Shown: positions 33,338-55,772 of the stretch, in pieces
How positions within the stretch are numbered: the stretch's first letter is position 1
How the letters are laid out: every line of letters starts with the position of its first letter
NCBI GenBank assembly: GCA_041652815.1
Contig: JBAZGN010000002.1
Span: forward strand, 302,261 to 366,260
Reading direction: 5' to 3'
Source: Candidatus Omnitrophota bacterium
GTDB taxonomy: Bacteria > Omnitrophota > Gorgyraeia > Duberdicusellales > 4484-171
Length of the DNA: 64,000 bases
Translations under genes and position numbers: made by a program
Notes under the pieces: generated by a model
The model's input: only the letters and a program-made list of their open reading frames with translations
The model's database searches: none
Told to the model about the DNA's origin: nothing

Positions 33338-33702
33338 GTTCGGCTGACCCTTGGTTCGTTTTATACAAGTCTCTCAAAAACATCCTTCCGTTGCTTTTGG
33401 TATGAAATATGCACCGCCCGCTTGGGCGGGCTTGGTGGTTGGCGCATTCACCGCTCGCCCCGCCTTGGGCGGGGACTTCGCTGCCTCGCTCGCTGGGCCG
33501 CTCGCTCTCTCAAGCAGTCTTGCCTCGCGCTCCCTGCGCCGCTAGGGCGGCTCCGGGGCTTGGCAAGCCTGCGGAACCACGTTTGTCCCGCGGTCGTAGC
33601 GTTTTGATACCCTTCCTCAGGCACCCGCTTTCGTCGGGCTTTCGCGCTTCGCGCAAATTTTTTCCTTTTCAATAAATCCTTTTCGGCTGGCGGCGGGGGA
33701 AA
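33338..33702 (+). repeat. GC-rich long repeat A, copy A1 (inverted copy at 50698..51053)
   Basis: ~360 bp with near-identity to the reverse complement of 50698..51053 apart from a divergent ~50-bp middle; contains hairpins gcccgcttgggcgggc and ccccgccttgggcgggg; starts at core cgttcggctg. Confidence 0.85.
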
Positions 33703-34180
33703 GGGGGGTAAAGCCCTCCTCAAGCAGGCGCCATCGTCGGGGTATTGTTTTGCCTTAGTAAAGGCAAAACACCCCGCCAAACCATCCCCCGACCACCCAG
33801 CTGTCGCAGCCGGGCGGCTTCAATCGCCTTTGGCGATTTTCGCTCCACCCTTTATGCGCCAGCTTTCCCCTCAGCGGAAAAAGAAACCTGTATATTTGGT
33901 TTTTTTCAAATCCCCACCCACCCAACAGTCACAGTCGGGCGGCTCCAATCTGTCGATTTCCGCATCGCCCTTTATGTGCCTGTTTTCCCCCTAAGAAATA
34001 ATACGCTATAACCTGGATTCTCCTTTCATTTCTTTTCATTCTACATCCCACCCAGCGCTTCGCGCTTCCTCATTTGTCAAGGATACTACGGCTTCCTTCC
34101 CCGAAGGGGCAGGACTTCCGTTCCTCCTTGACAAACGAGCCTCTCTGGATGTTTTAAATAAAAAAATGAAAGGAGGTGTT
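33703..34180 (+). repeat. GC-rich structured non-coding block with two tandem ~85-bp units (U1 33786..33878, U2 33911..33993) and long hairpin ttgtcaagga...tccttgacaa
   Basis: Units cccacccaRcaGtcRcagYcgggcggctYcaatc...ccctttatgYgcc; hairpin gttttgccttagtaaaggcaaaac; no credible ORF; GC far above window average. Confidence 0.7.
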
Positions 34181-34182
34181 CA

Positions 34183-34434
34183 ATGGAAAAGAAAATTTAT
34201 AAGTTAGAAAAGAGGCCTAGTAAATACAAAGTTCCTACTGCCCATTCCTCAAAGTCCTTATATGACCTTCAGATGTATCTCAATAAAAGCCGTGTGCGAA
34301 AGGGTTTGAATGCCCGCAAGAAACTGGTTAAAAAGTACAAAAGGCCAAATGGTTTTCTTCCAATGCTCAAATTGCTCGCCTTCTATTATGCCCTTGTCGG
34401 GCTAGTTATCCTATTGGCAAAACTAGGTATTTAG
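34183..34434 (+). CDS. small basic protein with C-terminal TM helix
   Basis: RBS aaaggagg; 83 aa; C-terminal LKLLAFYYALVGLVILLAKL. Confidence 0.45.
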   Translation: MEKKIYKLEKRPSKYKVPTAHSSKSLYDLQMYLNKSRVRKGLNARKKLVKKYKRPNGFLPMLKLLAFYYALVGLVILLAKLGI

Positions 34435-34472
34435 ATATTGCACCCTGTATTCAAAATGTGGTATAATACAAT

Positions 34473-35519
34473 ATGGCTGAGTTTGTTGTATCGGATAACT
34501 CCTATTCCAACCTGCTAAAGCAGATAAAACACGAAATAACCGACGGCCTAGTCCGCGCCCAAAAGGCTTATGAACGGGAAAAAGTTATTTCTTACTGGAA
34601 AATTGGTCAAGCCATAGATAAACACCTGTTGGAGAATAAGGACAGAGCCGATTACGGCAAGCAGTTGTATAGCCGGCTTTCGCGCGATTTAAATATCGGC
34701 GAACGCTTGCTTTACCAGATGTCGCAATTCTATTATGCCTACCCGGATTTAAAGCCTTCGCAAAACCTTAAATGGTCTCATTACCGGTTGCTGACTTCGG
34801 TTAAAGACGAAGAGCAGAGGGCTATACTCGAAACCAAAGCCGCCGACGACAACTGGTCGAAGCGCGCCTTGGAAACTTTCATTAAGGACGACAAGGAAAA
34901 AAGCGTTAAAGCCGCCAAGCCAAAATCTACAAAACTATCTTTTTTTAAGGGCCAGCTTTATACTTACGGTATATTTAAAGACGCTTGTGCTGAAAATGTT
35001 CTTATAGACTGCGGGTTTAATGTTTACTATGAATCAGATATGACAAAGTTCCCCGCTACCTCATTAAAGTCATCGGGCGGATCCGCCTTTGGCAGAAGCG
35101 GCAATCTGGTAGAAACTGTTAAAACCGGCGACACTTACAAGCTGGTCAAGTCCAACGCCACCCTTAAGCATTTATACACCTATAAAGCCTACGTTAAAAA
35201 AATCGTGGACGGCGATACCCTTTGGGTAACCATAGATTGCGGGTTTAAAATCTGGGTCAGTCAGAAGCTCCGCTTGCGCGGCATAGACACGCCTGGCATT
35301 ACAACCAAAGAGGGCATGAAATCTTACAAGTTCGTTTGCAATGAACTTAAAGGCTTACCGTTTGTTATAATAAAAAGCCACGGCCGGGATAAATACGACC
35401 GTTACCTTACGGATATATTCTACTTAAAGGACGGAAAAGACCCCCTAGCGGTCTTAGAGAAAGGTGAATTCTTAAACCAAAGGCTTTTAGACGCAAGCTT
35501 AGCAGATAGAGAGTTTTAG
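34473..35519 (+). CDS. DUF1016_N (YhcG-like N-terminal domain) fused to staphylococcal-nuclease-like (SNase/thermonuclease) domain
   Basis: N-terminal YWKIGQAI...RADYGKQLYSRLSRDL...WSHYRLL matches YhcG DUF1016_N; C-terminal IVDGDTLWV...LRLRGIDTPG...DKYDRYL matches SNase (DGDT, RLxGIDTPE, DKYGR) with the catalytic Glu position replaced by Gly. Confidence 0.65.
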   Translation: MAEFVVSDNSYSNLLKQIKHEITDGLVRAQKAYEREKVISYWKIGQAIDKHLLENKDRADYGKQLYSRLSRDLNIGERLLYQMSQFYYAYPDLKPSQNLKWSHYRLLTSVKDEEQRAILETKAADDNWSKRALETFIKDDKEKSVKAAKPKSTKLSFFKGQLYTYGIFKDACAENVLIDCGFNVYYESDMTKFPATSLKSSGGSAFGRSGNLVETVKTGDTYKLVKSNATLKHLYTYKAYVKKIVDGDTLWVTIDCGFKIWVSQKLRLRGIDTPGITTKEGMKSYKFVCNELKGLPFVIIKSHGRDKYDRYLTDIFYLKDGKDPLAVLEKGEFLNQRLLDASLADREF

Positions 35520-35585
35520 ATTATGTTAAGCTGGAATCCTTCGAAGCTTTAGAGCAGTAGGACGAAAGCCTTGCCGAGAGTTAAA

Positions 35586-35605
35586 CTACGTAGTATACTA
35601 CGTAG
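35586..35605. promoter_or_regulatory. perfect 20-bp palindrome CTACGTAGTATACTACGTAG (candidate operator overlapping -10-like TATACT)
   Basis: Exact self-complementary 20-mer 18 bp upstream of the AbrB-like small ORF. Confidence 0.6.
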
Positions 35606-35622
35606 TAATGGGGGTGTAGATA

Positions 35623-35799
35623 ATGGCACAACATAAGAAAAAAGGCGGCGTTACCCGAAAAATCACCAAGACTGGCGATTATACTTATTACGTAACCATT
35701 CCCGCGGAATATATCGAGGAGTTGGGCTGGCGCTGTAAACAAAAGGTATTGGTTAAACTTTTAGGGAAAAAAGTGGTTATTGAGGATTGGAGGGGATAG
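35623..35799 (+). CDS. small AbrB/MazE-like (swapped-hairpin) DNA-binding protein, 58 aa (below track threshold)
   Basis: MAQHKKKGGVTRKITKTGDYTYYVTIPAEYIEELGWRCKQKVLVKLLGKKVVIEDWRG; TIP..I..LG...G..V pattern of SpoVT/AbrB domain. Confidence 0.5.
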   Translation: MAQHKKKGGVTRKITKTGDYTYYVTIPAEYIEELGWRCKQKVLVKLLGKKVVIEDWRG

Positions 35800-35886
35800 A
35801 ATTGCCCTTCTCACTCAGGGTTGTTTGGATCATTTAAATGGTGTATAATCAACTAATATTTCCTAATTTTAAGGAGAAGATAGCTA

Positions 35887-37341
35887 ATGTTTGAGCAAAC
35901 CTTTAAGAATATTGACGATATCCTGCATAAAGATGCCGGGTGCAGTAGCGAGCTGGATTATGTGGAGCAGACCTCATGGATTCTCTTCTTGAAATATCTT
36001 GATGATCTCGAGAAAGATAAAAAAACAGCGGCAAAGCTATCAGGCAAGGCTCACGCGGGTATTATTAGCCCGGAATATCGCTGGGAAGTCTGGGCAGTCC
36101 CTAAAGATAATGACGGCAAGATTGATCATCACAAGGCGCTTACCGGAGATGATTTAAAAGATTTTGTCGACCACAAGTTATTTCCCTACCTAAAAAAGTT
36201 TAAAACCAATGCCGAGAGCGCCGATACTATCGAGTATAAAATTGGCGAGATTTTTAGCGAGCTTAAAAATAGAATCCAGAGTGGTTATAATCTGCGAGAG
36301 GTTATTAATTTAATAGATGAACTGCGTTTCCGTTCCCATGCCGAAAAACATGAGATGTCTCATCTATATGAGGACAAGATCAAGAATATGGGGAATGCGG
36401 GTAGAAACGGCGGGGAATATTACACGCCCCGTCCGCTTATCAAAACCATCGTGAAAGTTGTCGCTCCGGAAATCGGAAGCAAGATTTATGATGGCGCAGT
36501 AGGTTCGGCAGGGTTTTTGTGCGAAGCATTTGAATATCTTAAGACCAAAAAAAATCTAACCACAAAAGACGCCCAGACCCTACAGAAAAACACCTTTTAC
36601 GGCAAAGAAAAGAAATCGCTCGCCTACATCATCGGTACGATGAACATGATTTTGCATGGCATCGAGGCGCCGAATATCGTGCATACCAATACGCTTGCGG
36701 AAAACCTCGCCGATATTCAAGAAAAAGATCGTTATGATATTGTTCTCGCCAATCCGCCATTTGGTGGCAAGGAACGTGCCGAGGTGCAACAGAATTTCCC
36801 TATCAAGACCGGTGAAACGGCGTTTTTATTCTTACAGCATTTCATCAAGATTCTGAAAGCTGGCGGTCAGGCTGGCGTAGTGATTAAAAACACTTTCCTC
36901 TCCAACGCGGACAATGCTTCAGTCAGTCTTCGCAAACTTCTGCTGGAAAGCTGTAATCTGCATGCAGTCCTTGATCTGCCCGGCGGTACATTTACTGGCG
37001 CAGGTGTTAAGACTGTCGTACTTTTCTTTGAGAAAGGCGTTCCGACGCGTAAGGTTTGGTTTTATCAGCTAAATCTTGACCGCAACCTTGGCAAGACTAA
37101 CCCGCTGAATGAAAATGATCTCGCTGATTTCTTAATGCTTCAAAAGACCAAAGCGGACTCAGAGAATTCTTGGTCTGTTGATATTGTCGATGTAGATAAG
37201 GAAACAAGCGATCTATCGGTCAAGAATCCGCATAGAAGAAATGAAATAACTATTCGCGCCCCTCAAATAATTCTAGATGAAATGCAGACGCTGGACATGG
37301 AAAGCGCGAAGATATTGAAGGGCATAAAAGAGCTGTTATGA
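35887..37341 (+). CDS. hsdM: type I restriction-modification system methyltransferase subunit
   Basis: N6-adenine MTase motifs: NPPFG (ANPPFGGKERAEV), motif I GSAGFL; HsdM_N-like N-terminus. Confidence 0.85.
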   Translation: MFEQTFKNIDDILHKDAGCSSELDYVEQTSWILFLKYLDDLEKDKKTAAKLSGKAHAGIISPEYRWEVWAVPKDNDGKIDHHKALTGDDLKDFVDHKLFPYLKKFKTNAESADTIEYKIGEIFSELKNRIQSGYNLREVINLIDELRFRSHAEKHEMSHLYEDKIKNMGNAGRNGGEYYTPRPLIKTIVKVVAPEIGSKIYDGAVGSAGFLCEAFEYLKTKKNLTTKDAQTLQKNTFYGKEKKSLAYIIGTMNMILHGIEAPNIVHTNTLAENLADIQEKDRYDIVLANPPFGGKERAEVQQNFPIKTGETAFLFLQHFIKILKAGGQAGVVIKNTFLSNADNASVSLRKLLLESCNLHAVLDLPGGTFTGAGVKTVVLFFEKGVPTRKVWFYQLNLDRNLGKTNPLNENDLADFLMLQKTKADSENSWSVDIVDVDKETSDLSVKNPHRRNEITIRAPQIILDEMQTLDMESAKILKGIKELL

Positions 37342-38489
37342 GTAATCGATGGGAAAATAAAACTCTTGGCGAAGTCTGTGAGATTTTGGATAACAGACGC
37401 AAGCCAATCACAAAACGAGATCGGACTGCCGGTGAGTATCCTTACTACGGAGCTACTGGTATTTTGGATTATGTGCATGATTATATTTTTGATGAAAAGT
37501 TGATTTTGATTGGTGAGGATGGGGCAAAATGGGGAGCTGGTGAGAATACGGCATTTATTGCAGAAGGAAAATATTGGGTGAATAATCACGCCCATGTTAT
37601 CAGGCCTGATAGAAAAATTGTTTTAGATAATTGGTTAGTTTATTTCTTAAACTTTAGCGATTTATCCAAGTACGTTACAGGTTTAACAGTCCCCAAGCTC
37701 AATCAAGCGAAGATGCGAGAAATTTCACTGCCTCTTCCACCGATTTCCGAGCAAAAGAAAATGCTTCATGTAATTGATGAGATTTTCGAAAAGACAACTA
37801 AGGCAAAAGAAAACGCTGAAAAGAATCTGCAAAATGCTCGAGAGCTTTTTGAGTCGTACTTGCAAAGCATTTTTGCCAATCCGGGCGATGATTGGGAAGA
37901 AAAAAGTGTTGGTGAGATTGCTGATATTGAATATGGATTCACTGATAAAGCAAAATACGCGGGTGATTATCGATACATCAGGATCACGGATATTGATAAG
38001 AACGGAAATTTAGTAAAAGATGGCAAGGTTTTTGTTGATGCTTCCGAAGAGGCTAAAAAATATTTATTAAAGGATGGTGATCTGTTAATGGTAAGGACCG
38101 GCGCAACCTATGCGAAAGTATTGCTATACAAAGACATTGAAAAATCAATTTTTGCTTCTTATTTGATCCGGATCAAGTTTAGACAGGATATTGTAAACAA
38201 GCTTTACTGGTATTTCTCCAAATCCAGAATTTATTGGGAACAAGCAAACAAGCTTTCTTCTGGCTCTGCTCAGCCACAGTTTAACGGCGGAGTATTAAAA
38301 GAGCTTGTGTTTTATTTTCCGAGATCCTTTGAGAAACAAGGACAGATTGTCACCAAGCTTGATGCTCTTTCCACGGAGATTAAAAAACTCGAGATTGTAT
38401 ATCAGCAGAAGCTAATTGATCTTGAAGAACTTAAGAAACCGATATTACATAAGGCCTTTAACGGTGAACTCGCAGGAGTATGCTCATGA
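37338..38489 (+). CDS. hsdS: type I restriction-modification system specificity subunit
   Basis: Two target-recognition domains separated by conserved coiled-coil repeats; overlaps hsdM stop and hsdR start. Confidence 0.8.
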   Translation: MSNRWENKTLGEVCEILDNRRKPITKRDRTAGEYPYYGATGILDYVHDYIFDEKLILIGEDGAKWGAGENTAFIAEGKYWVNNHAHVIRPDRKIVLDNWLVYFLNFSDLSKYVTGLTVPKLNQAKMREISLPLPPISEQKKMLHVIDEIFEKTTKAKENAEKNLQNARELFESYLQSIFANPGDDWEEKSVGEIADIEYGFTDKAKYAGDYRYIRITDIDKNGNLVKDGKVFVDASEEAKKYLLKDGDLLMVRTGATYAKVLLYKDIEKSIFASYLIRIKFRQDIVNKLYWYFSKSRIYWEQANKLSSGSAQPQFNGGVLKELVFYFPRSFEKQGQIVTKLDALSTEIKKLEIVYQQKLIDLEELKKPILHKAFNGELAGVCS

Positions 38490-40792
38490 ATGAAGCCGAA
38501 ACCAGAGCAGAATATATTGATCCTAAGCTAAAAGCCAGCGGCTGGGGTATCGTGGAAGGCACCAAGGTTCTGCGTGAATACAAAATCACTGCCGGTAAAA
38601 TCCAGACTGGTGGAGGTCGCGCCAAGCCGTTGATTGCTGACTATGTTCTGGTGTATCGCGGTCGTAAGCTTGCCATCATTGAAGCCAAGAGTGATGAGCT
38701 TGAAGTTGGCGAAGGCGTTGCTCAAGCCAAGAACTATGCCGAAATGATGCATCTTGATACGACTTATGCCAGTAACGGCAAAGAGATTTACCAAATCTGT
38801 ATGAAAACCGGGAAGGAAGGCTTGGTTGCTTCTTTCCCGTCACCGGAAGAATTATGGAATAGAACTTTTGAGACGCAAAACCAATGGCGGGATAAGTTTA
38901 ATCAAGTCCCGTTTGAAGATGTCGGCGGTACAAAAGAAGTGCGCTATTATCAGGAAATCGCGGTTAATAACGCTATGGCCGCCATTGCCGAAGATAAACC
39001 GCGCATATTGCTTACCTTGGCCACAGGCACCGGTAAAACCTTCATCGCTTTTCAGATAGCGTGGAAACTTTATCATACCCGCTGGAACTTGAAGCGCGAT
39101 GGAAGCCGTAGACCTCGTATTTTATTTCTTGCCGATAGAAATATTCTTGCTGATCAGGCATTCAACGCCTTTTCAACATTCCCCGAGGACGCGCTCGTTC
39201 GAATTAACCCCAAAGAAATCAGCAAAAAAGGCAGTGTTCCGACTAACGGCAGTATTTTCTTTACCATCTTTCAGACCTTTATGAGCGGTAAGGATAAAGA
39301 CGGTAAGCCTGCTCCATACTTTGGCGAATATCCTGTAGATTATTTTGATTTTATCATTATTGATGAATGTCATCGCGGCGGGGCGAATGACGAAAGCAAT
39401 TGGCGAGGTATTCTGGAATATTTCTCTCCTGCTGTACAGCTCGGCCTTACCGCAACGCCTAAACGTAAAGATAACGTTGATACTTATCGCTATTTTGGTG
39501 ATCCGGTTTATGTATATTCGCTTAAAGAAGGTATCAACGATGGATTTTTAACACCGTTTAAAATTAAGCGAATCAAGACGACTATTGATGATTATGTTTA
39601 TACTTCGGACGATAAGATTATAGAAGGTGAAATTGAAGAGGGGAGAATATACACAGAGCCGGATTTCAATAGAATTATAGAGATTAAAGAGCGTGAATCT
39701 AAGCGAGCGCAGATATTCCTTTCTGAAATTAATCAAAAAGAGAAAACTATCGTTTTTTGTGCTACCCAAGATCATGCGCTCGCAGTACGCGATCTGGTTA
39801 ATCAATATAAAGATAGCAAGGAACCCAATTATTGTGTGCGCGTTACCGCTAACGATGGTTTTCTTGGTGAACAGTATTTGAGAGAATTTCAGGATAACGA
39901 GAAAACCATCCCAACGATACTAACTACCTCACAAAAATTATCTACGGGCGTAGATGCGCGTAATATTAGAAATATTATACTTATGCGGCCGATTAATTCT
40001 ATAATTGAGTTTAAACAAATTATTGGACGTGGGACACGGTTATTTGAAGGGAAAGATTATTTTACTATTTATGATTTCGTTGATGCGTATCACCATTTTT
40101 TAGATCCTACTTGGGATGGTGAACCAATAGACGAAACAAAGGAGAAGGAGCCAAAGAAGCCGAAAGAGCCACCTGTTCCTCCAGAACCACCTGAGCCGCC
40201 CAAGAAGAAGATTAAGATTAAGCTGCGCGATGGTAAGGAGAGAGAAATACAGCATATGATTGCGACAACTTTCTTAAGTGCTGATGGTAGGCCAATGTCT
40301 GCAGAAGAATTCTTAAAGAGCATCTTTGGGGCATTGCCTGAATTCTTCAAAAATGAAGACGAGTTGCGTAAAATTTGGTCTAACCCGATTACCCGGAGGG
40401 CGTTGCTTGAAAAACTATTTAATGCTGGCTACGGTAAAGATGAACTAGCTGCTTTGCAGAAATTAATTAATGCTGAGAAGAGCGATCTATTTGATGTCCT
40501 CGAATACATTTCTTTCGCTATAAAACCAATCACGCGAGAAGAACGTGTTGCACAGGCACAGACAAAGATTTTTCAAGGGTTGGATAATAAACAAAAGGAG
40601 TTTCTGGAGTTTGTGCTTTCTAAATATATTGAAACTGGTGTGGAGGAGCTTGATCAGGAAAAACTGCCAGACCTTCTGACTCTGAAATATCAGGCAATTC
40701 GTGACGCAGAGGAAATATTGGGCGGGGTTGATAGTATCCGTGCCACTTTTATTGATTTCCAGAAGTATTTGTATGAGAAAGTGGTAGTTTGA
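38486..40792 (+). CDS. hsdR: type I restriction endonuclease subunit R (short, ~769 aa)
   Basis: N-terminal MNEAETRAEYIDPKL nuclease domain, helicase motifs ATGTGKT and DECH (IIIDECHRG), SAT/QxxGR motifs; proline-rich insert EPPVPPEPPEPP. Confidence 0.8.
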   Translation: MNEAETRAEYIDPKLKASGWGIVEGTKVLREYKITAGKIQTGGGRAKPLIADYVLVYRGRKLAIIEAKSDELEVGEGVAQAKNYAEMMHLDTTYASNGKEIYQICMKTGKEGLVASFPSPEELWNRTFETQNQWRDKFNQVPFEDVGGTKEVRYYQEIAVNNAMAAIAEDKPRILLTLATGTGKTFIAFQIAWKLYHTRWNLKRDGSRRPRILFLADRNILADQAFNAFSTFPEDALVRINPKEISKKGSVPTNGSIFFTIFQTFMSGKDKDGKPAPYFGEYPVDYFDFIIIDECHRGGANDESNWRGILEYFSPAVQLGLTATPKRKDNVDTYRYFGDPVYVYSLKEGINDGFLTPFKIKRIKTTIDDYVYTSDDKIIEGEIEEGRIYTEPDFNRIIEIKERESKRAQIFLSEINQKEKTIVFCATQDHALAVRDLVNQYKDSKEPNYCVRVTANDGFLGEQYLREFQDNEKTIPTILTTSQKLSTGVDARNIRNIILMRPINSIIEFKQIIGRGTRLFEGKDYFTIYDFVDAYHHFLDPTWDGEPIDETKEKEPKKPKEPPVPPEPPEPPKKKIKIKLRDGKEREIQHMIATTFLSADGRPMSAEEFLKSIFGALPEFFKNEDELRKIWSNPITRRALLEKLFNAGYGKDELAALQKLINAEKSDLFDVLEYISFAIKPITREERVAQAQTKIFQGLDNKQKEFLEFVLSKYIETGVEELDQEKLPDLLTLKYQAIRDAEEILGGVDSIRATFIDFQKYLYEKVVV

Positions 40793-40953
40793 TAATTCTA
40801 ATTCGGTGGGCACGCACGTAATTATTTACAATTAGGTCTCCAGAATTTCAGAATTTTTCAGATGTTTTGGCGATAGAGATTATCGAAAACATCGAGGTTG
40901 GGTTGGAGAGCTTTAAGAGGATTATTGAGAAATTAAATAAGTAGGCACCTTAA

Positions 40954-48739: not shown

Positions 48740-48754
48740 ACGTATTAGTTTTAG

Positions 48755-49615: not shown

Positions 49616-49710
49616 AATTTGAAGCGGTTGGCAAAGAGGTACGAGACTCGTTTGCCCCATTTTATTTAATATAAAACATAGATGATGGTGGTTGGGTAGA
49701 AGGAGATTAG

Positions 49711-50559
49711 ATGTCAGAAAAATCCGATTTAACTGTCCAAGAAGTCTTGGGTAATACAGCTTTGACCGATAAAATCCAAGTTTTATATCACTATACTAGC
49801 ATGGATTCATTAGAGAAAATAATGAAAAATGAGTGCATGCATTTTTCTCATATCTCATGGATGAATGACTATAGCGAATATGATTGGGGTTTAAATATGT
49901 TTCAAGAAAAATTGTTAAAAATGGTCAGCGACAAAACAAAGGAAATGGAAGAGAGTTTTAAGAAATTTATTAATATTATAAAAAAGGATAAGGATAAAGA
50001 TAATCCTTGTGTGGGATCGTTCACGGCTTTAAAAGAATCATTATCTCAATGGCGAGGCTATGGAGATAAGGGTGGTGGTATATGCATAGGTTTTGACGCA
50101 GGCCTTATGAAACGAATTTGCAAAGAAAATAATTTTATTATTGGAGATGTATTGTATGGTGATTCCTTTGATGGGTCTTGTTCTAATTTTCTTGCGAAAA
50201 TTTCTGGTTTTATTTCAGCATATACCAATGATCCAGCAGATGCTTTAGCCAGAGTCGGTATGCTTATTTCTCTTTTAGCTTGTTTTGTTAAACATGAAGG
50301 TTTTCAAGAAGAAAAAGAAATTAGAATAGCGATACCCTTCCCAGAAAAGTTACCCAACAAGCTTAAAGGTAAATTATATGTGCCTTATTTTTTGTTTGAT
50401 TTCAAAGAAAATTTTTCATCAATTTTTAAAGAAATTTGGGTTGGTCCTGCAGCTAACCAAGAACTCTTAGCTAAGTCTGTTTCGCTGCTTATAAATGAGT
50501 GTGGTTTGGATGATTCTTGTAAAATCTATAAATCCAATATACCATACAGAATAATATAA
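49711..50559 (+). CDS. DUF2971-family protein
   Basis: N-terminal LYHYTSMDSLEKIMKNE...SHISWMNDYSE pattern typical of DUF2971. Confidence 0.55.
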   Translation: MSEKSDLTVQEVLGNTALTDKIQVLYHYTSMDSLEKIMKNECMHFSHISWMNDYSEYDWGLNMFQEKLLKMVSDKTKEMEESFKKFINIIKKDKDKDNPCVGSFTALKESLSQWRGYGDKGGGICIGFDAGLMKRICKENNFIIGDVLYGDSFDGSCSNFLAKISGFISAYTNDPADALARVGMLISLLACFVKHEGFQEEKEIRIAIPFPEKLPNKLKGKLYVPYFLFDFKENFSSIFKEIWVGPAANQELLAKSVSLLINECGLDDSCKIYKSNIPYRII

Positions 50560-50697
50560 TTACAAAATAATATTTAGGAATCAATAGTTCACTTTTCTCG
50601 GCAATCGCAGTCGTCCTGTTTCAATCCTTCGGATTTCCACAACGGACTTTGTGCGCTTGCCTTCACCCACATAAAGAAAGAGGAATAACACCTTAAT

Positions 50698-51053
50698 ATT
50701 TCCCCCGCCGCCAGCCGAAAAGGATTTATTGAAAAGGGAAAAAATTGCGCGAAGCGCAAAAGCCTGACGAAAGCGGGTGCCTTGAGGAAGGGTATCAAAA
50801 CGCTACGACCGCGGGATAAACGTGGTTCCGCAGGCTTGCCGAGCCCCGGAGCCGCCCTAGCGGCGCAGGGAGCGCGAGGCAAGACTGCTTGAGAGAGCGA
50901 GCGGCCCAGCGAGCGAGGCAGTGAGCCGAGCGGCAGCGAAGGCGAACGGAGACTCCACCACCCACCAAGCCCGCCCCAGCGGGCGGTGCATATTTCATAC
51001 CAAAAGCAACGGAAGGATGTTTTTGAGAGACTTGTATAAAACGAACCAAGGGT
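50698..51053 (-). repeat. GC-rich long repeat A, copy A2 (inverted relative to A1)
   Basis: Reverse complement matches 33338..33702; spurious ORFs in both copies translate to the same peptides (MVRFIQVSQKHPSVAFGMKYAPP...). Confidence 0.85.
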
Positions 51054-51230
51054 CAACCGAATGTGCGTATGCAGACTTTTTTTCCGGAATTTGAATTTTG
51101 CATAGATTTTTCCTGTCTAAAATATTTGCGCGCGCTTCAGAAAATATAAAATTAAATGGTTCAAAAAAGGCAAAAGAAATTCTTTTTTCCAGATGGGCCG
51201 AACCCACCGGCGGGGCGATTTTGATGTTTT
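51054..51230 (-). repeat. 177-bp repeat B, copy B1 (inverted copy of 55587..55764; contains miaB promoter + first 16 codons in reverse orientation)
   Basis: Reverse complement identical or nearly so to 55587..55764; abuts A2 at shared core cattcggttg. Confidence 0.85.
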
Positions 51231-51444: not shown

Positions 51445-51627
51445 ATGGAGAAAAGATATAATCTTAGCGAAGCGGCTAAAGAATTGGGTTTAACTCGTCA
51501 GGGCCTTTATTATTGGATAAAGAAGGGTTGGGCTACGCCTAAGCGAGATTATAAGGGGTATCCGGTTTTCACTGAAATTGATTTAAAAAAGATTAAAGAG
51601 TGGCGTGATAAGTTAGAGAATTTCTAA
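51445..51627 (+). CDS. small HTH DNA-binding protein, excisionase/AlpA/MerR-like (candidate recombination directionality factor)
   Basis: MEKRYNLSEAAKELGLTRQGLYYWIKKG helix-turn-helix; promoter-like cttgac...taaagt upstream; lies in the recombinase cassette. Confidence 0.5.
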   Translation: MEKRYNLSEAAKELGLTRQGLYYWIKKGWATPKRDYKGYPVFTEIDLKKIKEWRDKLENF

Positions 51628-53456
51628 TGGAAAATAAAGAAGCAGTTAGATATATTAACGATTTAATTCAAAATATCCTTCCTGGGGTGGCAATCGATAT
51701 CCATCAGCAAAACCATTTTAACTATTCTTTTAACGTCAAAAATAACGGAGAATCATGTAATATCATTTTCGGGCGCGATGATATGGATGATTTTGATAAA
51801 GCTCTGCAAAGTGATCATAACTCTGATTATTATCGTGGATTAGAGGGGAGTATTAAATTTAAAATTTATATCTCATTAGGAAAAGCTGGTCTTATCCCTA
51901 AATTTCCGATTGCTAAACAAATTTTGGATGAAAAGCGAGATTGGCATAATGATGTTATGGTCCATTTTGTTCGAGAAGATTGGTTTTATAAGGTTTTAGA
52001 GGTCGGACTTAAAGACCTAAAAATGTTTCTGGAAGATATTATAGAAAAACATGGTCCTCAATCAGAGATTGAAAATGAACTGGAACATATCGAAGGATTA
52101 TTGTCCTATTACAATAAACATAAAAGTTTTGAGGAAAGAGGAGCCTCTGACGTTAGTCTGGGTTATCTGAAAGCGGCAGCTATTGCCGTGGTTCTTAAAA
52201 AAGAAAAAGAGTGTCAAGAAATAAAAATTCCACGCGTTTTGCAAACTAAAAATAAAGAAATCTATGATATTGTTGATGAACTAAGAAAAGATTTTTTTCT
52301 ACAGACAAAAATGCCAGATTGCGTGTATGATTATGCTGAAAATATTAATTTAGGTCATGGGAGGAAAGAAGATGAATTTCAGATGGTCAATATCCCTTGC
52401 GGGCCTTTAGCAAAACAGACATGCGATTTGAAAACAAAAATTGATCAGGATTTTTCTAAGAAAAATATTTTTATTGATATCCCATATACTAACTATGAAG
52501 ATTGTGAATTAGCTTTAAGAGAATTATTGAAAGAATTTGGGTTTAACCCGGTCGTCGCTAAAGACAGGTTAACTTGCAATGCAGTCCTTTGTAAGGTTTG
52601 CAAATTAGTAAAAATATGTAGATTTGGAATTGTAGACATATCTTCTGCAAGTAATAGTGTTGCTTATGAATATGGATTAATGCATGGATTAGGCATGAAA
52701 GTTTGTCTTTTGTTACGTACAGAGAGTGAAAAGTTTACTGATATAGAAGGATTGGAACATATCTCTTACTCGGGGTTAACTAGCCTTAAGATTGCAGTTT
52801 CAAGGTGGATTCTAGATAATATTGATGACATTAATCGTTCTTTAGTGGAAGAATTTATTTCAAAAAATGAGAGCTTACTCAAAGAAAATGGGGATACACC
52901 TTTGCAACTCCTATTACCTAAATCCATTATTGAATCGTCAAGAGAAGTAGGGTTGCAACCTGTTGACTCAAAAATTCTTGAAATATTGGGGGACATTATT
53001 ATTGCAAAGGAAGATGTGGGAATGATTGTAGAAACCATAGCAGAAGTTATAAAAAATGCAGAAAAATATAAAATTTCTCAAGAGGATGTTTTTGAATCAT
53101 TAGATGTGTTGGAATCAAGATATTTTTTGAAAATTTTAAAACATCTTGGTGATCCAAAAACCTATCATCTTAGTATTTCGATATCCGGATTTCTTAAGTA
53201 TTGTGAATTATATTTAAGAAACTTTGGAGAAATAGTAAAAAGTATAGCCTATGAGATATTAAAAAATAATATTATGTCCAGCAAGGAGATATCTCAAAAA
53301 GTTAATTGTAAGCCAATAGTAGCATATGCTTTATTCAAGTTTTTAGAGGAAAATGACTATATAATGGCTTCAGAACATGCGATAACGCAAGATATTGTAA
53401 TTTACGACCTTAAAGGCGATGGTAAAAGATGGTTCAATGATGTTCTCAATTCTTAA
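51627..53456 (+). CDS. hypothetical 609-aa protein with central nucleoside 2-deoxyribosyltransferase-like (NDT/TIR-like Rossmann) domain
   Basis: FIDIPY...FGIVDISSASNSVAYEYGLMHGLGMKVCLL resembles the NDT motif D..S.G...E.GyA.A.GKPV with conserved Glu; N- and C-terminal domains unrecognised. Confidence 0.45.
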   Translation: MENKEAVRYINDLIQNILPGVAIDIHQQNHFNYSFNVKNNGESCNIIFGRDDMDDFDKALQSDHNSDYYRGLEGSIKFKIYISLGKAGLIPKFPIAKQILDEKRDWHNDVMVHFVREDWFYKVLEVGLKDLKMFLEDIIEKHGPQSEIENELEHIEGLLSYYNKHKSFEERGASDVSLGYLKAAAIAVVLKKEKECQEIKIPRVLQTKNKEIYDIVDELRKDFFLQTKMPDCVYDYAENINLGHGRKEDEFQMVNIPCGPLAKQTCDLKTKIDQDFSKKNIFIDIPYTNYEDCELALRELLKEFGFNPVVAKDRLTCNAVLCKVCKLVKICRFGIVDISSASNSVAYEYGLMHGLGMKVCLLLRTESEKFTDIEGLEHISYSGLTSLKIAVSRWILDNIDDINRSLVEEFISKNESLLKENGDTPLQLLLPKSIIESSREVGLQPVDSKILEILGDIIIAKEDVGMIVETIAEVIKNAEKYKISQEDVFESLDVLESRYFLKILKHLGDPKTYHLSISISGFLKYCELYLRNFGEIVKSIAYEILKNNIMSSKEISQKVNCKPIVAYALFKFLEENDYIMASEHAITQDIVIYDLKGDGKRWFNDVLNS

Positions 53457-53471
53457 TATCAGGCAATGAAT

Positions 53472-53546
53472 ATGTTTATAGGGATTTATATTAGAGTCTC
53501 AACCGAAGACCAAGCGTAGGAGAATTATTCTCTTGAAGTGCAATGA
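53472..53546 (+). pseudogene. fossil fragment of a serine recombinase N-terminus
   Basis: MFIGIYIRVSTEDQA*..ENYSLEVQ* parallels the intact recombinase MKVVFYTRVSTEDQAKEGYSLEVQ at nucleotide level. Confidence 0.6.
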
Positions 53547-53610
53547 CAATATTTAATCTATTATGAAAAATTAAAGCAGAGTCGTAGGAATTGATTGAGG
53601 AGTGAAATAG

Positions 53611-54126
53611 ATGAAAAAGAAACTGTGGGATGAAAAAAAATATACTGATATTTTAAAAGAAGTTGGTGAGGGGCGTTATAAAATCTTCAATCCAGATGAC
53701 CCTTTTATATCGTATTTGTCGCCTGGATTATTTGATAAGTATGAATATAAATTTAACTGTGTTTGTCTTGCTACATCCACAACTATTGCTACTGCGACAG
53801 TGGATTACAAGTGCGAAGGGTTTCTTATACCGAAACATTCTCAGGTAGTGTTATGGCGCAATTTTCGCTATTGTACTCATGACGGATCACCTCACCTTAA
53901 TGCAGATGATAATATTATATTTCCTGACCAATCTGGCGATGTATGGAAAGTTTCTAAAACAGATGCCTACGATCATTATGTCGCAATTGCTTCATGGGCA
54001 GGACTTCAGACTATCACATCGGTCTATCATTTACCCGATCAACCTTGTGGTTTGTATCCGCAGTATATTGAGAAGGGCGCAAACGTGCCAGTGAAATTTG
54101 TTAAAGTTGAAAGCGATAAACCATGA
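53611..54126 (+). CDS. hypothetical 171-aa protein
   Basis: RBS gaggagtg; no family recognised; immediately upstream of and overlapping the recombinase start. Confidence 0.4.
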   Translation: MKKKLWDEKKYTDILKEVGEGRYKIFNPDDPFISYLSPGLFDKYEYKFNCVCLATSTTIATATVDYKCEGFLIPKHSQVVLWRNFRYCTHDGSPHLNADDNIIFPDQSGDVWKVSKTDAYDHYVAIASWAGLQTITSVYHLPDQPCGLYPQYIEKGANVPVKFVKVESDKP

Positions 54127-55772
54127 AAGTAGTTTTTTACACTCGCGTATCAACCGAAGATCAAGCTAAAGAAGGCTATTCGCTTGAGGTCCAAAGGGAA
54201 TATCTTGAATCTTTTGCTGAACGTGAAGGTTTTGAAATCTTCAAAGTTTACTGTGATGATGGTATAAGCGCTTATTCAACACGCAGACCTGCGTTACAGG
54301 GGTTACTTGCTGACGCGAAGGCAAAGCGGTTTGAGTTAGTGCTGGTTTATAAAATAGACAGGTTTAGCCGGAATCTTAAAGACTTACTGATTTTGGTTGA
54401 TGAGCTTTTGGGCTATGGCGTGGGGTTTAAGTCTGCCACAGAGCCGTTTGATTCTACAACGTCAGCCGGAAAGTTGATGTTTCAGCAATTGGGTAGCTTT
54501 GCGGAGTTCGAGCGCAATAGGTTAGCGGAGCGTGTATTCCCCGGCATGATTAAAGGTGTTCAGGCTGGGAATTGGCAGGGCGCTCGGTATGCGCCATTTG
54601 GGTATCACTATAACAAGCCGGAAAAGCTTCTTGAGGTGGTTGATGATGAGGCAAAGGTTGTCCGGTTGATTTATCAGATGTATCTTGAAGGCAGAAGCAC
54701 GCGGGATATTGTTAATTATTTGAATCGCAATGGTTTTAAATCCCGCGCCGGTTTAAAGTTTTACGATAAGTTTATCGGTGATGTTTTGAAGAACCGCATT
54801 TATACCGGCCAACTTATTTGGAATAAAAAGCATTACGACAAGAACCAGAAAACCAAAAAGCATTTCAAATATGTCAAAAATGACCCTGCCAAAATTATTA
54901 TTTCCCAAGGCCGTCACCAGCCGATTATTTCCTTGGAAGATTTTGAGAAAGCTCAAAATCTTCTTGCCAATAAAAAACGCACTTGGCGGCCAAGAGTAAG
55001 AAATCAGGAATATCTTTTATCTGGCTTGTTAAGTTGTGCCAAGTGTAATTCAAATTATTGCGGCAACCTTTCCATATCTAATCATCATACCGGTATCAAG
55101 AAGCGCTGGTATCGTTGTTCCGGTCCGCTGTCCCACGGCATTAGGTGCAAGAACCGCGCCGTCAAAGCCGCCGAAGTTGAAGCCTTGACTGACAGTGTTG
55201 TTGCTCGTTTAGTGGAAAGTGAGGGGTTTAAAGACAGCCGATGGACGACCGTGACTGGCACAAATGGGAGTTTTTCCGCGTTTTTTGACCAAAACCCTGC
55301 CAGTCTTCGCCAAGAGCTTGTTGAAAACAAGCAAAAACAAGGAAAGCTTACTGACGCTTACCTGGATAATTTGCTTGGCGAAGACGTTTTTCATGCTAAG
55401 ATGGATGAGCTTCGTTTGCGCGAAGATGAGCTGAAGAAAAACCTTGCCGGCATTGAACTTTTGGCGCTTGAGCGTGAGCGCTCCGAGGGGTATCTGAACA
55501 GGGTTAAGGACTTTCTTGACGGTTACGACGAAGGGCTTACCAAGGTAGGTTTTGAACACAAAAGGCAGATGGCCGGACTGCTTTTTAAAAACATCAAAAT
55601 CGCCCCGCCGGTGGGTTCGGCCCATCTGGAAAAAAGAATTTCTTTTGCCTTTTTTGAACCATTTAATTTTATATTTTCTGAAGCGCGCGCAAATATTTTA
55701 GACAGGAAAAATCTATGCAAAATTCAAATTCCGGAAAAAAAGTCTGCATACGCACATTCGGTTGTCAAATGA
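54123..55772 (+). CDS. large serine recombinase (resolvase/invertase catalytic domain + recombinase domain + zinc ribbon)
   Basis: YTRVSTEDQ with catalytic Ser, LVVYKIDRFSRN motif, C-rich zinc-ribbon region (CAKCNSNYCG...CSGP...C); final ~60 codons lie inside repeat B2. Confidence 0.85.
   Translation: MKVVFYTRVSTEDQAKEGYSLEVQREYLESFAEREGFEIFKVYCDDGISAYSTRRPALQGLLADAKAKRFELVLVYKIDRFSRNLKDLLILVDELLGYGVGFKSATEPFDSTTSAGKLMFQQLGSFAEFERNRLAERVFPGMIKGVQAGNWQGARYAPFGYHYNKPEKLLEVVDDEAKVVRLIYQMYLEGRSTRDIVNYLNRNGFKSRAGLKFYDKFIGDVLKNRIYTGQLIWNKKHYDKNQKTKKHFKYVKNDPAKIIISQGRHQPIISLEDFEKAQNLLANKKRTWRPRVRNQEYLLSGLLSCAKCNSNYCGNLSISNHHTGIKKRWYRCSGPLSHGIRCKNRAVKAAEVEALTDSVVARLVESEGFKDSRWTTVTGTNGSFSAFFDQNPASLRQELVENKQKQGKLTDAYLDNLLGEDVFHAKMDELRLREDELKKNLAGIELLALERERSEGYLNRVKDFLDGYDEGLTKVGFEHKRQMAGLLFKNIKIAPPVGSAHLEKRISFAFFEPFNFIFSEARANILDRKNLCKIQIPEKKSAYAHSVVK
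55587..55764 (+). repeat. 177-bp repeat B, copy B2 (recombinase 3' end + miaB promoter and first 16 codons)
   Basis: Inverted copy of 51054..51230; ends at core cattcggttg inside the miaB start. Confidence 0.85.

What the first reader, a model, noticed from the sequence alone, without database searches (positions are those of the whole stretch)
33338..55772. ~22-kb composite island bounded by nested long inverted repeats and carrying a large serine recombinase
Two pairs of long inverted repeats are present. Repeat A (~360 bp, GC-rich) lies at 33338–33702 and, inverted, at 50698–51053. Repeat B (177 bp) lies at 51054–51230 and, inverted, at 55587–55764. A brackets a 17-kb block of defense-type cargo. 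B brackets a 4.4-kb recombinase cassette. Repeat B2 contains the native promoter and first 16 codons of miaB, and also the last ~60 codons of the recombinase ORF. This does not look like a simple direct-repeat att duplication. It suggests a recombinase-driven invertible or mobile module inserted at the 5' end of miaB.
Basis: seen in the sequence. Interest (0 to 1): 0.85.

Follow-up and report, generated by a model that had tools for sequence, protein, structure and literature searches.

The report
Serine-recombinase island inserted in miaB
A 22.4-kb defence-gene island has been spliced by a large serine recombinase into the start of the tRNA-modification gene miaB, repairing the gene with its own promoter and first codons, and its two long inverted repeats are a second, inverted copy of the island's attachment site, a layout shared by related islands in four bacterial phyla and not described in the papers I could search.

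Summary
Both inverted repeats are real. B (51054-51230 / 55588-55764) is 177 nt and 100% identical. A (33347-33702 / 50699-51053) is about 93% identical.

They are the two arms of one duplicated ~530-bp attP region. One copy was split by integration: attL is at 33345, attR at 55763, and the crossover dinucleotide is TG. The other copy is intact and inverted at 50699-51230.

The miaB start in B2 is not native. The native start is a 12-codon stub (MSKYSIYIKTFG-stop) stranded at 33309-33347. The island supplies the replacement 5' region and 16 codons.

The recombinase ORF runs across attP. Integration therefore removes a conserved 17-28-aa tail.

The same layout, an inverted attP plus attR bracketing the recombinase cassette with arms ending exactly at TG, occurs in about 40 of 80 related loci from Omnitrophota, Elusimicrobia, Margulisbacteria and Auribacterota. 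One of these is a curated complete genome. The arms evolve in concert: 93-100% identity within a locus against about 79% between loci.

The structure is shown. The purpose of the second attP is inferred. My favoured guess is that flipping the cassette re-fuses the truncated recombinase to its tail. No empty site and no flipped copy were found.

Verdict: a real, new variant of a known kind.

The parts
33223..33308 (+). Native intergenic region upstream of the original miaB start (presumed native promoter and RBS)
   Evidence: Lies between the stop of the methyltransferase ORF (33222) and the stub ATG. Promoter function is inferred; no sigma-70 consensus was found.
33309..33347 (+). Stranded native miaB 5' stub: 12 codons MSKYSIYIKTFG followed by TGA. 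The TG of that stop is the crossover dinucleotide.
   Evidence: Read directly from the sequence. The six-frame site scan finds ..YIKTFG|* here. The identical junction is present in the independent contig L096.
33336..33346 (+). attL core ACGTTCGGC-TG. This is the left copy of the 9/11 imperfect direct repeat; the crossover TG is at 33345-33346.
   Evidence: In the alignment of attL with the internal attP, identity starts exactly at TG, with mismatches at positions -1 and -7.
33347..33702 (+). Repeat A1: the P' arm of the split attP. Positions 33346-33405 encode the recombinase tail DPWFVLYKSLKNILPLLLV plus a stop. The rest is GC-rich and ends in a hairpin followed by a T-run.
   Evidence: (100% identical to A2 for the first 76 nt).
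33703..50698 (+). Cargo module, 17 kb, all genes on the + strand. Genes: DUF1016/PDC-S02 nuclease-like, type I R-M hsdM/hsdS/hsdR, a PDC-M36A-like 498-aa protein, a 306-aa protein, an ACP, an NAD-binding reductase, a 7TM-GAF histidine kinase, two response regulators, a second ACP, 91-aa and 286-aa proteins, and DUF2971/PDC-S31.
   Evidence: Pfam, PHROGs and PADLOC scans.
50699..51053 (-). Repeat A2': the P' arm of the intact, inverted internal attP. It carries a second intact copy of the recombinase tail exon (51054 down to 50995).
51054..51230 (-). Repeat B1: the inverted copy of the P arm. It holds the crossover TG (51055-51054 on the minus strand), 16 surrogate miaB codons, the RBS and upstream region, and the last ~60 recombinase codons as a non-functional fragment.
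   Evidence: The junction is spanned by independent contig L092.
51231..55587 (+). Unique part of the recombinase cassette. A TTGACA-17-TAAAGT promoter-like site lies at 51409-51437.
   Evidence: This segment assembles as its own unitig, ending in the B repeat, in five other samples.
51445..51627 (+). 60-aa MerR-type HTH protein, a candidate excisionase, directionality factor or regulator. It is the first gene inside the left repeat in Omnitrophota, and in WOR-1 it is the only extra cassette gene.
   Evidence: Pfam MerR_1 2e-06. PHROG 66 excisionase 1.3e-4. Homologous position in L008, L009 and L039.
51627..53456 (+). 609-aa protein of unknown function
   Evidence: No hit in Pfam, PHROGs, PADLOC or NCBIfam. 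The equivalent cassette positions in relatives hold defence- or TA-like genes: AbiV, RES, AbiE and a HerA-like protein.
53611..54126 (+). 171-aa protein of unknown function
   Evidence: No hits.
54123..55772 (+). Large serine recombinase, 549 aa, the truncated integrated form. The ORF crosses the crossover and stops at a TGA created by the miaB codons CAA-ATG-AAC.
   Evidence: Pfam PF00239, PF07508 and PF13408. R8 and S10 are invariant in alignment A2. Reading frame taken.
55588..55764 (+). Repeat B2: the P arm at attR. It is dual-coded: the recombinase C-terminus in one frame, and in another the surrogate miaB upstream region with 16 codons MQNSNSGKKVCIRTFG. The crossover TG is at 55763-55764.
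55715..56896 (+). Restored miaB: codons 1-16 come from the island, and codon 17 onward (CQMN...) is native.
   Evidence: The miaB contig L001 from another sample begins at 55624, which equals 55764-140. That is a graph branch exactly at the crossover.

Best explanation
**Shown**

Window 33347-55762 is a 22.4-kb integrative genomic island of a Candidatus Omnitrophota genome. A large serine recombinase (LSR) inserted it at a TG dinucleotide inside the conserved T-F-G|C-Q-M-N codons of miaB.

The island's attP is dual-coded.
- Left of TG (P arm = repeat B), one frame encodes the recombinase C-terminus. Another frame encodes a surrogate upstream region, RBS and 16-codon N-terminus for miaB.
- Right of TG (P' arm = repeat A), the sequence encodes the last 19 residues of the recombinase, followed by a GC-rich hairpin and terminator-like leader.

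Integration therefore has three effects.
1. It leaves the native promoter and a 12-codon stub at attL.
2. It rebuilds a full-length miaB at attR from island-supplied 5' sequence.
3. It truncates the recombinase two residues after the crossover.

The island carries a second, intact copy of the whole ~530-bp attP region in inverted orientation, between the 17-kb cargo and the 4.4-kb recombinase cassette. That is why A and B each appear as long inverted repeats and abut at 51054. This duplicated, inverted attP is an ancestral and actively homogenised feature of a large clade of these recombinases.

**Inferred**

- The excised form is a circle with two inverted attP regions that separate a recombinase module from a cargo module.
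- The perfect identity of the B arms is kept up by intramolecular recombination or gene conversion.
- The most likely use of the second attP: flipping the cassette between the B arms, by RecA or by the recombinase itself at TG, re-fuses the truncated recombinase gene to the tail exon at the internal attP. That would regenerate the full-length enzyme while the island is integrated.
- Tandem accretion at attR would have the same effect on the resident recombinase gene.
For: **Att sites in the window**
- attL, the internal site and attR share only AC.TTCGG.TG. Identity between attL and the internal site begins exactly at TG and runs 76 nt at 100% into A. Identity between the internal site and attR ends exactly at TG after 177 nt at 100%.
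- The stub MSKYSIYIKTFG-stop sits directly left of A1.
- miaB identity. LSR domains and the invariant catalytic Ser.

**Family-wide evidence**
- 1082 homologous protein clusters.
- In 61 of 80 GTDB loci, the recombinase ORF runs into ..TFG|CQMN. Two of these run into LTLG|CKVN, a paralogue.
- 26 loci carry a complete inverted copy of the outer P arm upstream of the cassette, and about a dozen further contigs start inside it. In every case both copies end at TG, with miaB on one side and a conserved P' arm (ACCYTTGG..TACAA) on the other. These include the curated complete WOR-1 genome, L039.
- Concerted evolution: the two P arms within a locus are 93-100% identical, with a median of 100%. Between loci the median is 78-80%.

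**Recombinase tail**
- P' is open for 17-28 codons in the recombinase frame at all 33 junctions examined, with a shared [DE]-x-W-x-x-x-Y-[KR] motif.
- Nucleotide differences by codon position run 3rd > 1st > 2nd, and synonymous changes are more frequent than in either other frame, in three clades.
- About 30% of recombinase cluster representatives are long forms that carry such tails.

**Independent assemblies of this same island**
- These reproduce attL, the A2'-B1 junction and the cassette with inverted ends.
- Contig L099 starts exactly at the TG of attL. That is the merge point expected if A1 also has a second left-hand partner, such as an excised or tandem form.
Against: - No empty miaB site and no excised circle were recovered. 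Both metagenome scans returned nothing, and no close relative is present in viral contigs.
- Canonical LSR rules do not allow attP x attP or attP x attR recombination, so enzyme-driven flipping would be unorthodox.
- No integrated locus was seen with the cassette in the flipped orientation. About nine loci have imperfect repeats, so their orientation is fixed by the assembler, and all have the recombinase next to miaB.
- The tail exon in the internal copy could be preserved merely by gene conversion with the attL copy.
- The structure model of the long form was too poor to say what the tail does (pLDDT 61).
- Promoter activity of the P arm is assumed, not shown.
Confidence: 0.75

Rival explanations
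1. Assembly artefact: the inverted repeats arise from a chimeric or collapsed join in a metagenome-assembled contig.
For: The window comes from a MAG contig. A 177-nt perfect repeat is longer than common k-mer sizes, so the orientation of the 4.4-kb cassette cannot be fixed by a de Bruijn graph alone. Other assemblies break at exactly these repeats.
Against: The two A copies differ by about 7% and by indels, so they cannot be one collapsed sequence. An independent assembly spans attL through A2' into B1. The cassette unitig L003 ends in B on both sides, which requires a true inverted repeat. The same layout is present in about 40 independent MAGs, including a curated complete genome and loci with imperfect repeats that assemblers resolve.
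Confidence: 0.03
2. Programmed invertible switch: the recombinase flips the 4.4-kb and/or 17-kb segment as a phase-variation device that controls miaB or the cargo genes.
For: The recombinase gene sits inside a segment bounded by long inverted repeats, as hin does. Each B arm is inferred to hold an outward-reading surrogate miaB upstream region (promoter activity not shown). The arms are kept identical, which implies frequent exchange between them.
Against: Because B1 and B2 are identical, flipping leaves the miaB upstream region and N-terminus unchanged. The cargo genes have no obvious dependence on orientation. All orientation-resolved relatives show a single orientation. The enzyme is a 549-aa integrase-type LSR, not a small invertase with a C-terminal HTH. 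The attL/attR pair and the stranded native stub show integration, not just inversion.
Confidence: 0.12
3. Composite of two separately acquired elements, by tandem or nested accretion. In this reading the internal attP-like junction is simply the seam between a cargo element and a later recombinase element.
For: Tandem accretion does seem to occur in this family. Cassettes flanked by P' arms on both sides, with defence cargo on both sides, are seen in L052, L094, L029 and L017. A1 and A2 differ by about 7%, whereas B1 and B2 are identical.
Against: Accretion through a polar TG crossover gives a seam in direct orientation. Here, and in about 40 relatives, the internal site is inverted. A fusion of two circles with palindromic sites would give one site reading P-CA-P', which is not what is observed (reasoned). 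The inner boundary of the repeat is conserved across diverged relatives.
Confidence: 0.07
4. The two-inverted-repeat circle works like the yeast 2-micron plasmid: recombination between the repeats during replication amplifies the copy number of the excised form.
For: The inferred circle has the same geometry. Two long inverted repeats split it into two unique regions, the recombinase gene abuts one repeat, and the recombination sites lie inside the repeats.
Against: No replication initiator was detected in the cassette or cargo. Cassette genes in relatives are defence- or TA-like. Contig L096 passes through attL without a branch, so an abundant free form is unlikely in that sample. LSRs are not known to recombine attP with attP.
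Confidence: 0.03

Closest known systems
Large-serine-recombinase integrative elements and prophages (phiC31, Bxb1, A118 in comK, SPbeta in spsM, the skin element in sigK, SCCmec/Ccr at rlmH)
   Same: Same domain architecture (Resolvase + Recombinase + zinc ribbon). The best NCBIfam similarities are CcrB, CcrC and XisF, all far below their cutoffs. As in those systems, a short attP recombines with an attB inside a gene, the inferred crossover is 2 bp, and no long homology is involved.
   Different: Those elements usually interrupt the target gene, or sit at its 3' end, and carry a single attP outside the integrase ORF. Here the element rebuilds the 5' end of the target gene. The attP lies inside the recombinase ORF and is dual-coded. 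A second complete attP region is kept in inverted orientation.
DusA-associated integrase islands (Farrugia et al. 2015, PMC4482086)
   Same: These islands integrate into the 5' end of a conserved tRNA-modification gene and replace that 5' end with island-borne sequence.
   Different: They use a tyrosine integrase, the target is a different gene, and they have no inverted attP duplication.
SSV1-type archaeal integrases (own knowledge)
   Same: attP lies within the integrase gene, so integration splits the gene.
   Different: They are tyrosine recombinases of archaeal viruses, they target tRNA genes, and they have no spare copy of the detached gene fragment.
Hin/Gin/Pin invertible segments (own knowledge; PinQ in PMC12529663 was seen only as a title and abstract)
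   Same: A serine recombinase gene lies inside a segment bounded by inverted repeats next to a gene it can affect.
   Different: Those are small invertases with 26-bp sites and an enhancer, and inversion changes expression. Here the repeats are 177 nt and symmetric with respect to miaB, and the enzyme is an integrase-type LSR.
Yeast 2-micron plasmid / FLP (own knowledge)
   Same: A circle divided by two long inverted repeats that contain the recombinase target sites.
   Different: It uses a tyrosine recombinase and is an autonomous replicon. No replication genes were found here.

Membership tests
Large serine recombinase (serine integrase) | N-terminal resolvase catalytic domain with a Ser nucleophile | tested here: met
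   PF00239 at 5.7e-38, residues 3-150. YxRVSTxxQ motif with R8 and S10 invariant in 19 homologues.
Large serine recombinase (serine integrase) | Recombinase domain plus zinc-ribbon domain C-terminal to the catalytic domain | tested here: met
   PF07508 at 1.3e-23 and PF13408 at 3.3e-09.
Large serine recombinase (serine integrase) | Coiled-coil motif that controls site pairing | tested here: inconclusive
   A low-confidence AF2 model (pLDDT 61) shows long helices at 397-472. No further test was done.
Large serine recombinase (serine integrase) | Exchange at a 2-bp crossover between short attP and attB sites that share no long homology | tested here: met
   The junction alignments place the exchange within TG. 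This holds in the window and in 26 relatives. It is inferred from sequence, not from biochemistry.
Site-specifically integrated genomic island | attL and attR from which an intact target gene (attB) and an attP can be reconstructed | tested here: met
   Stub + TG + native miaB gives MSKYSIYIKTFGCQMN. B2 + TG + A1 matches the internal attP exactly across both half-sites (100% for 177 nt on the P side and for the first 76 nt on the P' side).
Site-specifically integrated genomic island | Empty site in related genomes or samples | tested here: not met
   Two metagenome scans for the b arm and b' arm junctions returned no contigs at all. The test is uninformative because that collection does not hold this locus.
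Site-specifically integrated genomic island | Excised circular form | tested here: inconclusive
   Contig L099 from ERZ27247358 starts exactly at the TG of attL, as expected at a graph merge of two left-hand partners. No junction contig was recovered.
Hin/Gin-type invertible segment | Small serine invertase with a C-terminal HTH, short inverted crossover sites, and two orientations in the population | tested here: not met
   The enzyme is 549 aa with integrase-type domains. The match to the Mpi invertase model is 22.8 bits against a cutoff of 272. Only one orientation is seen among resolved relatives. Population-level orientation cannot be tested without reads.
IS or composite transposon with terminal inverted repeats | Transposase plus a target-site duplication flanking the inverted repeats | tested here: not met
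   No transposase is present in 33.3-55.8 kb. The flanks are the two halves of one ORF sharing only the TG, so there is no duplication.
5'-end-replacing islands of tRNA-modification genes (DusA-island type) | Insertion in the 5' end of the gene, with the island supplying a new 5' end | tested here: met
   The analogy is taken from PMC4482086.
5'-end-replacing islands of tRNA-modification genes (DusA-island type) | DusA-associated tyrosine integrase | tested here: not met
   The recombinase here is a serine recombinase.
Integrase gene split by its own attP (SSV1 type) | attP lies inside the integrase ORF | tested here: met
   The P' arm is an open, conserved tail with a coding pattern in the recombinase frame. 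Long-form proteins exist in databases.
Integrase gene split by its own attP (SSV1 type) | Tyrosine recombinase of an archaeal virus | tested here: not met
   This is a serine recombinase in bacterial genomes.

The most novel reading that the evidence does not exclude
The inverted spare attP is a built-in reactivation device. Integration cuts the last ~20 residues off the recombinase and locks the island in place. Inversion of the cassette between the identical B arms, or arrival of a second island at attR, re-fuses the gene to a tail exon. That restores the full-length enzyme and licenses excision, or eviction of the newcomer. This would be a natural recombinase gene that is switched off by its own reaction and switched on by a DNA flip.
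Probability: 0.25. Interest if true: 0.85.

Novelty: new variant of a known kind. Interest (0 to 1): 0.68.

Why it matters
**What it shows about these elements.** An abundant family of serine-recombinase islands has gone unremarked. It comprises more than 1000 protein clusters and occurs in at least 145 species-level genomes of Omnitrophota, Elusimicrobia, Margulisbacteria and Auribacterota. The islands deliver defence genes to one fixed address, the T-F-G-C-Q-M-N codons of miaB.

**How the address is handled.** The attachment site is unusually economical. It encodes parts of two proteins in overlapping frames. It repairs the target gene. It terminates the orphan peptides.

**Relevance to recombinase work.** Three features bear on people who study or engineer serine integrases.
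- The target sequence is conserved across bacteria.
- The integrase ORF spans its own attP.
- A conserved second attP has no explanation under current directionality rules.

**If the switch idea holds,** this would be a natural self-limiting and resettable integrase circuit.

Tried and rejected
1. **Structured RNA in repeat A.** Rfam at gathering threshold and at E<=1, ARAGORN, and folding against shuffles (z = 0.23) found nothing. A tmRNA or other RNA-gene attachment site is rejected.
2. **Exact look-ups.** The recombinase and the methyltransferase proteins are not on record.
3. **Empty site.** Two metagenome DNA scans, one for b arm + TG and one for TG + b' arm, gave no hits. The first pattern was 3 nt too long to match JGI contig L098, which starts 17 nt left of TG.
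4. **Viral contigs.** Only 24-25% identical recombinases were found, so there is no evidence for a phage.
5. **Function of the 609-aa and 171-aa cassette proteins.** No hit in Pfam, PHROGs, PADLOC or NCBIfam.
6. **AF2 model of the long-form recombinase.** Confidence was too low to interpret the tail. No fold search was run.
7. **Fusion of a cassette circle and a cargo circle, each with a palindromic site.** Rejected, because one resulting site would read P-CA-P'.
8. **Origin by a single inversion from a simpler integrated state.** Rejected, because every pairwise inversion between the three sites reproduces the same site types or requires a forbidden polarity.
9. **Literature.** Five searches (a sixth was rejected for a syntax error) found no description of this layout.

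Full report
**Observation**

- Repeat B is 51054-51230 versus 55588-55764: 177 nt, 100% complementary, 4357 nt apart.
- Repeat A is 33336-33702 versus 50699-51064, found as three blocks of 93-98% identity. BLAST gives 92.9% over 366 nt. The copies differ by small indels and one divergent patch.

The ORF map matches the finding.
- The ORF at 54123-55772 is a 549-aa protein with Resolvase, Recombinase and zinc-ribbon domains.
- The ORF at 55715-56896 is miaB (UPF0004 + Radical_SAM). It reaches the TIGR01574 equivalog cutoff.
- The 17 kb between the A copies holds a DUF1016 nuclease-like gene, a type I restriction-modification system, two candidate defence proteins (PDC-M36A-like and DUF2971/PDC-S31), a histidine kinase with two response regulators, two acyl carrier proteins and a reductase.
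- No tRNA, tmRNA or Rfam family lies in or near the repeats. Repeat A does not fold better than shuffled sequence.

**What the repeats are**

Three places in the window share the motif AC.TTCGG.TG.
- 33336-46 on the plus strand (ACGTTCGGCTG).
- 55754-64 on the plus strand (ACATTCGGTTG).
- 51054-64 on the minus strand (ACATTCGGTTG).

The site at 33345 and the inverted site at 51055 were aligned. They are unrelated to the left of TG, apart from that motif. From TG rightwards they are identical for 76 nt and then about 98% identical to the end of A.

The inverted site and the site at 55763 behave the other way round. They are identical for 177 nt up to and including TG and unrelated beyond it.

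This is the signature of a serine-recombinase exchange at a two-base crossover, and it gives these assignments:
- attL = b-TG-P' at 33345
- attR = P-TG-b' at 55763
- an intact attP = P-TG-P', lying inverted at 51055

Repeat B is the P arm and repeat A is the P' arm. They abut because together they form one ~530-bp attP region that is present twice, with one copy split by integration. The mismatches flanking TG restrict the crossover to that dinucleotide: C/T at -1 and A/T at +1 between the reconstructed attB and attP.

**The native miaB start**

Immediately left of A1 the plus strand reads ATG AGT AAG TAT AGC ATA TAT ATA AAG ACG TTC GGC TGA. That is MSKYSIYIKTFG followed by a stop, at 33309-33347.

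This is a normal MiaB N-terminus, cut off at the conserved TFG|CQMN motif. It lies 86 nt downstream of the methyltransferase gene.

The start codon now used by miaB (55715, MQNSNSGKKVCIRTFG) lies wholly inside repeat B2. B2 is identical to the internal copy B1, so this start belongs to the island. The island replaces the 5' end of miaB.

The design is compact. The first base of P' turns the crossover TG into TGA, which terminates both the orphan native stub at attL and the orphan surrogate N-terminus in the internal attP. The miaB codons CAA-ATG-AAC, read one base out of frame, supply the TGA that ends the recombinase at attR.

**The recombinase ORF spans attP**

I read the P' arm in the recombinase frame at 33 P-TG-P' or b-TG-P' junctions from the window and related loci.
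- It is always open for 17-28 codons and carries a shared [DE]-x-W-x-x-x-Y-[KR]... pattern. The window's tail is DPWFVLYKSLKNILPLLLV.
- Nucleotide differences among relatives fall mostly on third codon positions: 479 versus 321 and 250 in the Omnitrophota set.
- Synonymous changes are more frequent in this frame than in the other two, in three clades.
- About 30% of the 120 best recombinase cluster representatives are 17-30 residues longer and end in such tails. The rest end two residues after the crossover (S-x-V/A-K/R).

So the full-length enzyme is made only when P is joined to P'. Integration truncates it.

**Family-wide architecture**

The source is a Candidatus Omnitrophota MAG: P0001 is 100% identical and sits on a 448,591-bp contig. 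The recombinase has 1082 homologous clusters in that search and 145 confirmed relatives among GTDB species representatives, 80 of which were fetched.

| Feature | Count |
|---|---|
| Recombinase ORF runs into ..TFG\|CQMN of miaB | 61 of 80 loci (2 of them into LTLG\|CKVN of a paralogue) |
| Complete inverted copy of the outer P arm upstream of the cassette | 26 loci |
| Contig starts inside that repeat | about a dozen more |

In all 26 loci with a complete copy, both copies end exactly at TG. One continues into miaB and the other into a conserved P' arm (ACCYTTGG...TACAA).

The cassette between the arms varies in size.
- It is 1.7-1.9 kb in Elusimicrobia and Margulisbacteria, holding a small MerR-type HTH gene plus the recombinase.
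- It is 2.5-8 kb in Omnitrophota, where it also carries defence- or toxin-antitoxin-like genes.

The layout is present in the curated complete WOR-1 genome: L039, 163 nt at 100%.

It is absent from the most distant clade (<=48% identity). There L071 shows a plain attL...attR element of 11.3 kb.

The two P arms of one locus are 93-100% identical, with a median of 100%. P arms of different loci are about 78-80% identical. The arms therefore evolve in concert, which requires recurrent exchange between them.

**Independent support for this particular island**

In MEGAHIT assembly ERZ27247363:
- One contig equals window 32815-51194. It has the identical attL and reaches 141 nt into B1.
- The cassette is a 4639-nt unitig (4357 + 2x141) with perfectly inverted ends.
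- The miaB contig starts 140 nt before the crossover.

Cassette unitigs from four further samples end in the B repeat at one or both ends.

Contig L099 from ERZ27247358 begins exactly at the TG of attL. That is the point where a de Bruijn graph would merge two different left-hand partners of A1. It hints at an excised or tandem form but is not proof.

**How it most likely works**

*Shown.* The island is integrated at TG, the miaB 5' end is replaced, the recombinase is truncated, and a spare inverted attP is conserved and homogenised.

*Inferred.*
- Excision through attL x attR would give a 22.4-kb circle. In it, two inverted attP regions separate a recombinase module bounded by P arms from a cargo module bounded by P' arms.
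- The small MerR-type HTH protein is the obvious candidate for an excisionase or regulator.
- The A arm, with its hairpins and a hairpin-plus-T-run about 300 nt from TG, would insulate the cargo from the miaB-type promoters that fire into it from both sides.

*The spare attP.* The explanation that accounts for the most features is a reactivation flip. Recombination between B1 and B2 would turn the cassette round and join the truncated recombinase gene in frame to the tail exon next to B1. This explains three things:
- why the repeat starts inside the recombinase coding region and ends at TG
- why an intact tail exon is kept at the internal site
- why the arms are kept identical

Cassettes flanked by P' on both sides, inside large defence islands, point to a second route. 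They suggest that new islands can integrate into attR, which would likewise complete the resident recombinase gene (L052, L094, L029, L017).

*Against the flip.* No integrated locus was seen in the flipped orientation. Standard LSR pairing rules do not allow attP x attR. Gene conversion alone could preserve the tail exon. I put the flip at about 0.25-0.3.

**Rivals**

- **Assembly artefact.** Excluded by the divergent A copies, the independent assemblies and the many relatives.
- **Plain phase-variation switch.** Unlikely, because the symmetric arms leave miaB unchanged and only one orientation is seen.
- **Seam between two separately acquired elements.** This would lie in direct orientation, not inverted, given a polar TG crossover.
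- **Fusion of two circles.** This would leave one site with a CA centre, which is not observed.
- **2-micron-like amplification.** The geometry fits, but no replication gene was found.

**Comparison with known systems**

- By its domains and catalytic motif the enzyme is a large serine recombinase. It is not a member of any named NCBIfam equivalog: CcrB, CcrC and XisF all score far below their cutoffs.
- Replacing the 5' end of a tRNA-modification gene is known for the tyrosine-integrase DusA islands (PMC4482086).
- An integrase gene split by its own attP is known, to my knowledge, for SSV1-type archaeal tyrosine integrases.
- A recombinase gene inside a segment bounded by inverted repeats recalls Hin/Gin.
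- A circle divided by two inverted repeats recalls the 2-micron plasmid.

None of these combines all the features. Five literature searches found no description of a serine-recombinase island with a dual-coded attP in miaB and a conserved inverted spare attP.

**Verdict**

It needs three corrections: the repeats are a duplicated attP, the B2 start of miaB is element-borne, and inversion is unproven. This is a new variant of a known kind, of good interest to specialists in mobile elements and serine integrases.

Noticed in passing
window 8746-8938 (+): Cobalamin riboswitch, 92.5 bits. It is the only Rfam family in the window that reaches its gathering score.
   Followed up: no
window 30997-31138 and 32297-32438: A 142-nt direct repeat, 79% identical, lies in the intergenic regions upstream of the 365-aa ORF and the methyltransferase ORF. 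It may be a shared regulatory region.
   Followed up: no
window 11670-11779, 8526-8681: An imperfect 110-nt palindrome, with related short copies about 3 kb away.
   Followed up: no
window 55715-56896: miaB is only 393 aa and matches positions 2-370 of the 437-position MiaB model. It appears to lack the C-terminal TRAM domain, and the next ORF overlaps its end.
   Followed up: no
window 1-64000: Every long ORF, including all island genes, is on the + strand, and cumulative GC skew rises monotonically. The island therefore sits co-oriented with a strongly strand-biased chromosome.
   Followed up: no
L095 11626 and 13442-13500; L016 ~3300 and 4928: A full-length recombinase with P-TG-P' lies 1.6-1.8 kb upstream of an intact-looking miaB that has its own start (MTNKVFIRTMGCQMN; VKVFLKTYGCQMN). 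An attP and an attB-like site thus sit in direct orientation on one contig, separated by a small recombinase-less module.
   Followed up: partly
L027 6737-6954 and 11471-11687: The cassette sits between two inverted miaB-like 5' ends. The repeat runs about 70 nt past TG. On the left there is a complete 414-aa miaB-like gene on the minus strand.
   Followed up: partly
L021 4000, L023 3359: Members of the same recombinase family are joined to LTLG|CKVNQYE, the N-terminus of a MiaB paralogue (MtaB-like), instead of miaB.
   Followed up: no
L052 7549-12072 (729-kb Elusimicrobiales contig): The cassette is flanked by complete attP regions on both sides. The P arms are identical. The proximal 60 nt of the two P' arms are only about 65% identical, yet both encode an intact 19-aa tail. 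Type I R-M, STAND NTPase and AbiV genes lie on both sides, which looks like tandem accretion of defence islands.
   Followed up: partly
L094 1-7300: The cargo of a related island carries a diversity-generating retroelement (RVT_1, bAvd, Lcl_C target), an IS110 transposase and a HepT/MNT pair.
   Followed up: no
L042-L047, L051, L052, L063, L078: The surrogate miaB N-terminus AAPPGAGGAARRVCIITFG is identical in at least 10 different Elusimicrobia species representatives. This suggests recent spread of one element between species.
   Followed up: no
L099 position 1 (= window 33345): A contig from sample ERZ27247358 begins exactly at the crossover TG of attL. JGI contig L098 begins 17 nt before it. 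This may be a sign of a second junction, such as an excised circle or tandem copy, in those samples.
   Followed up: partly
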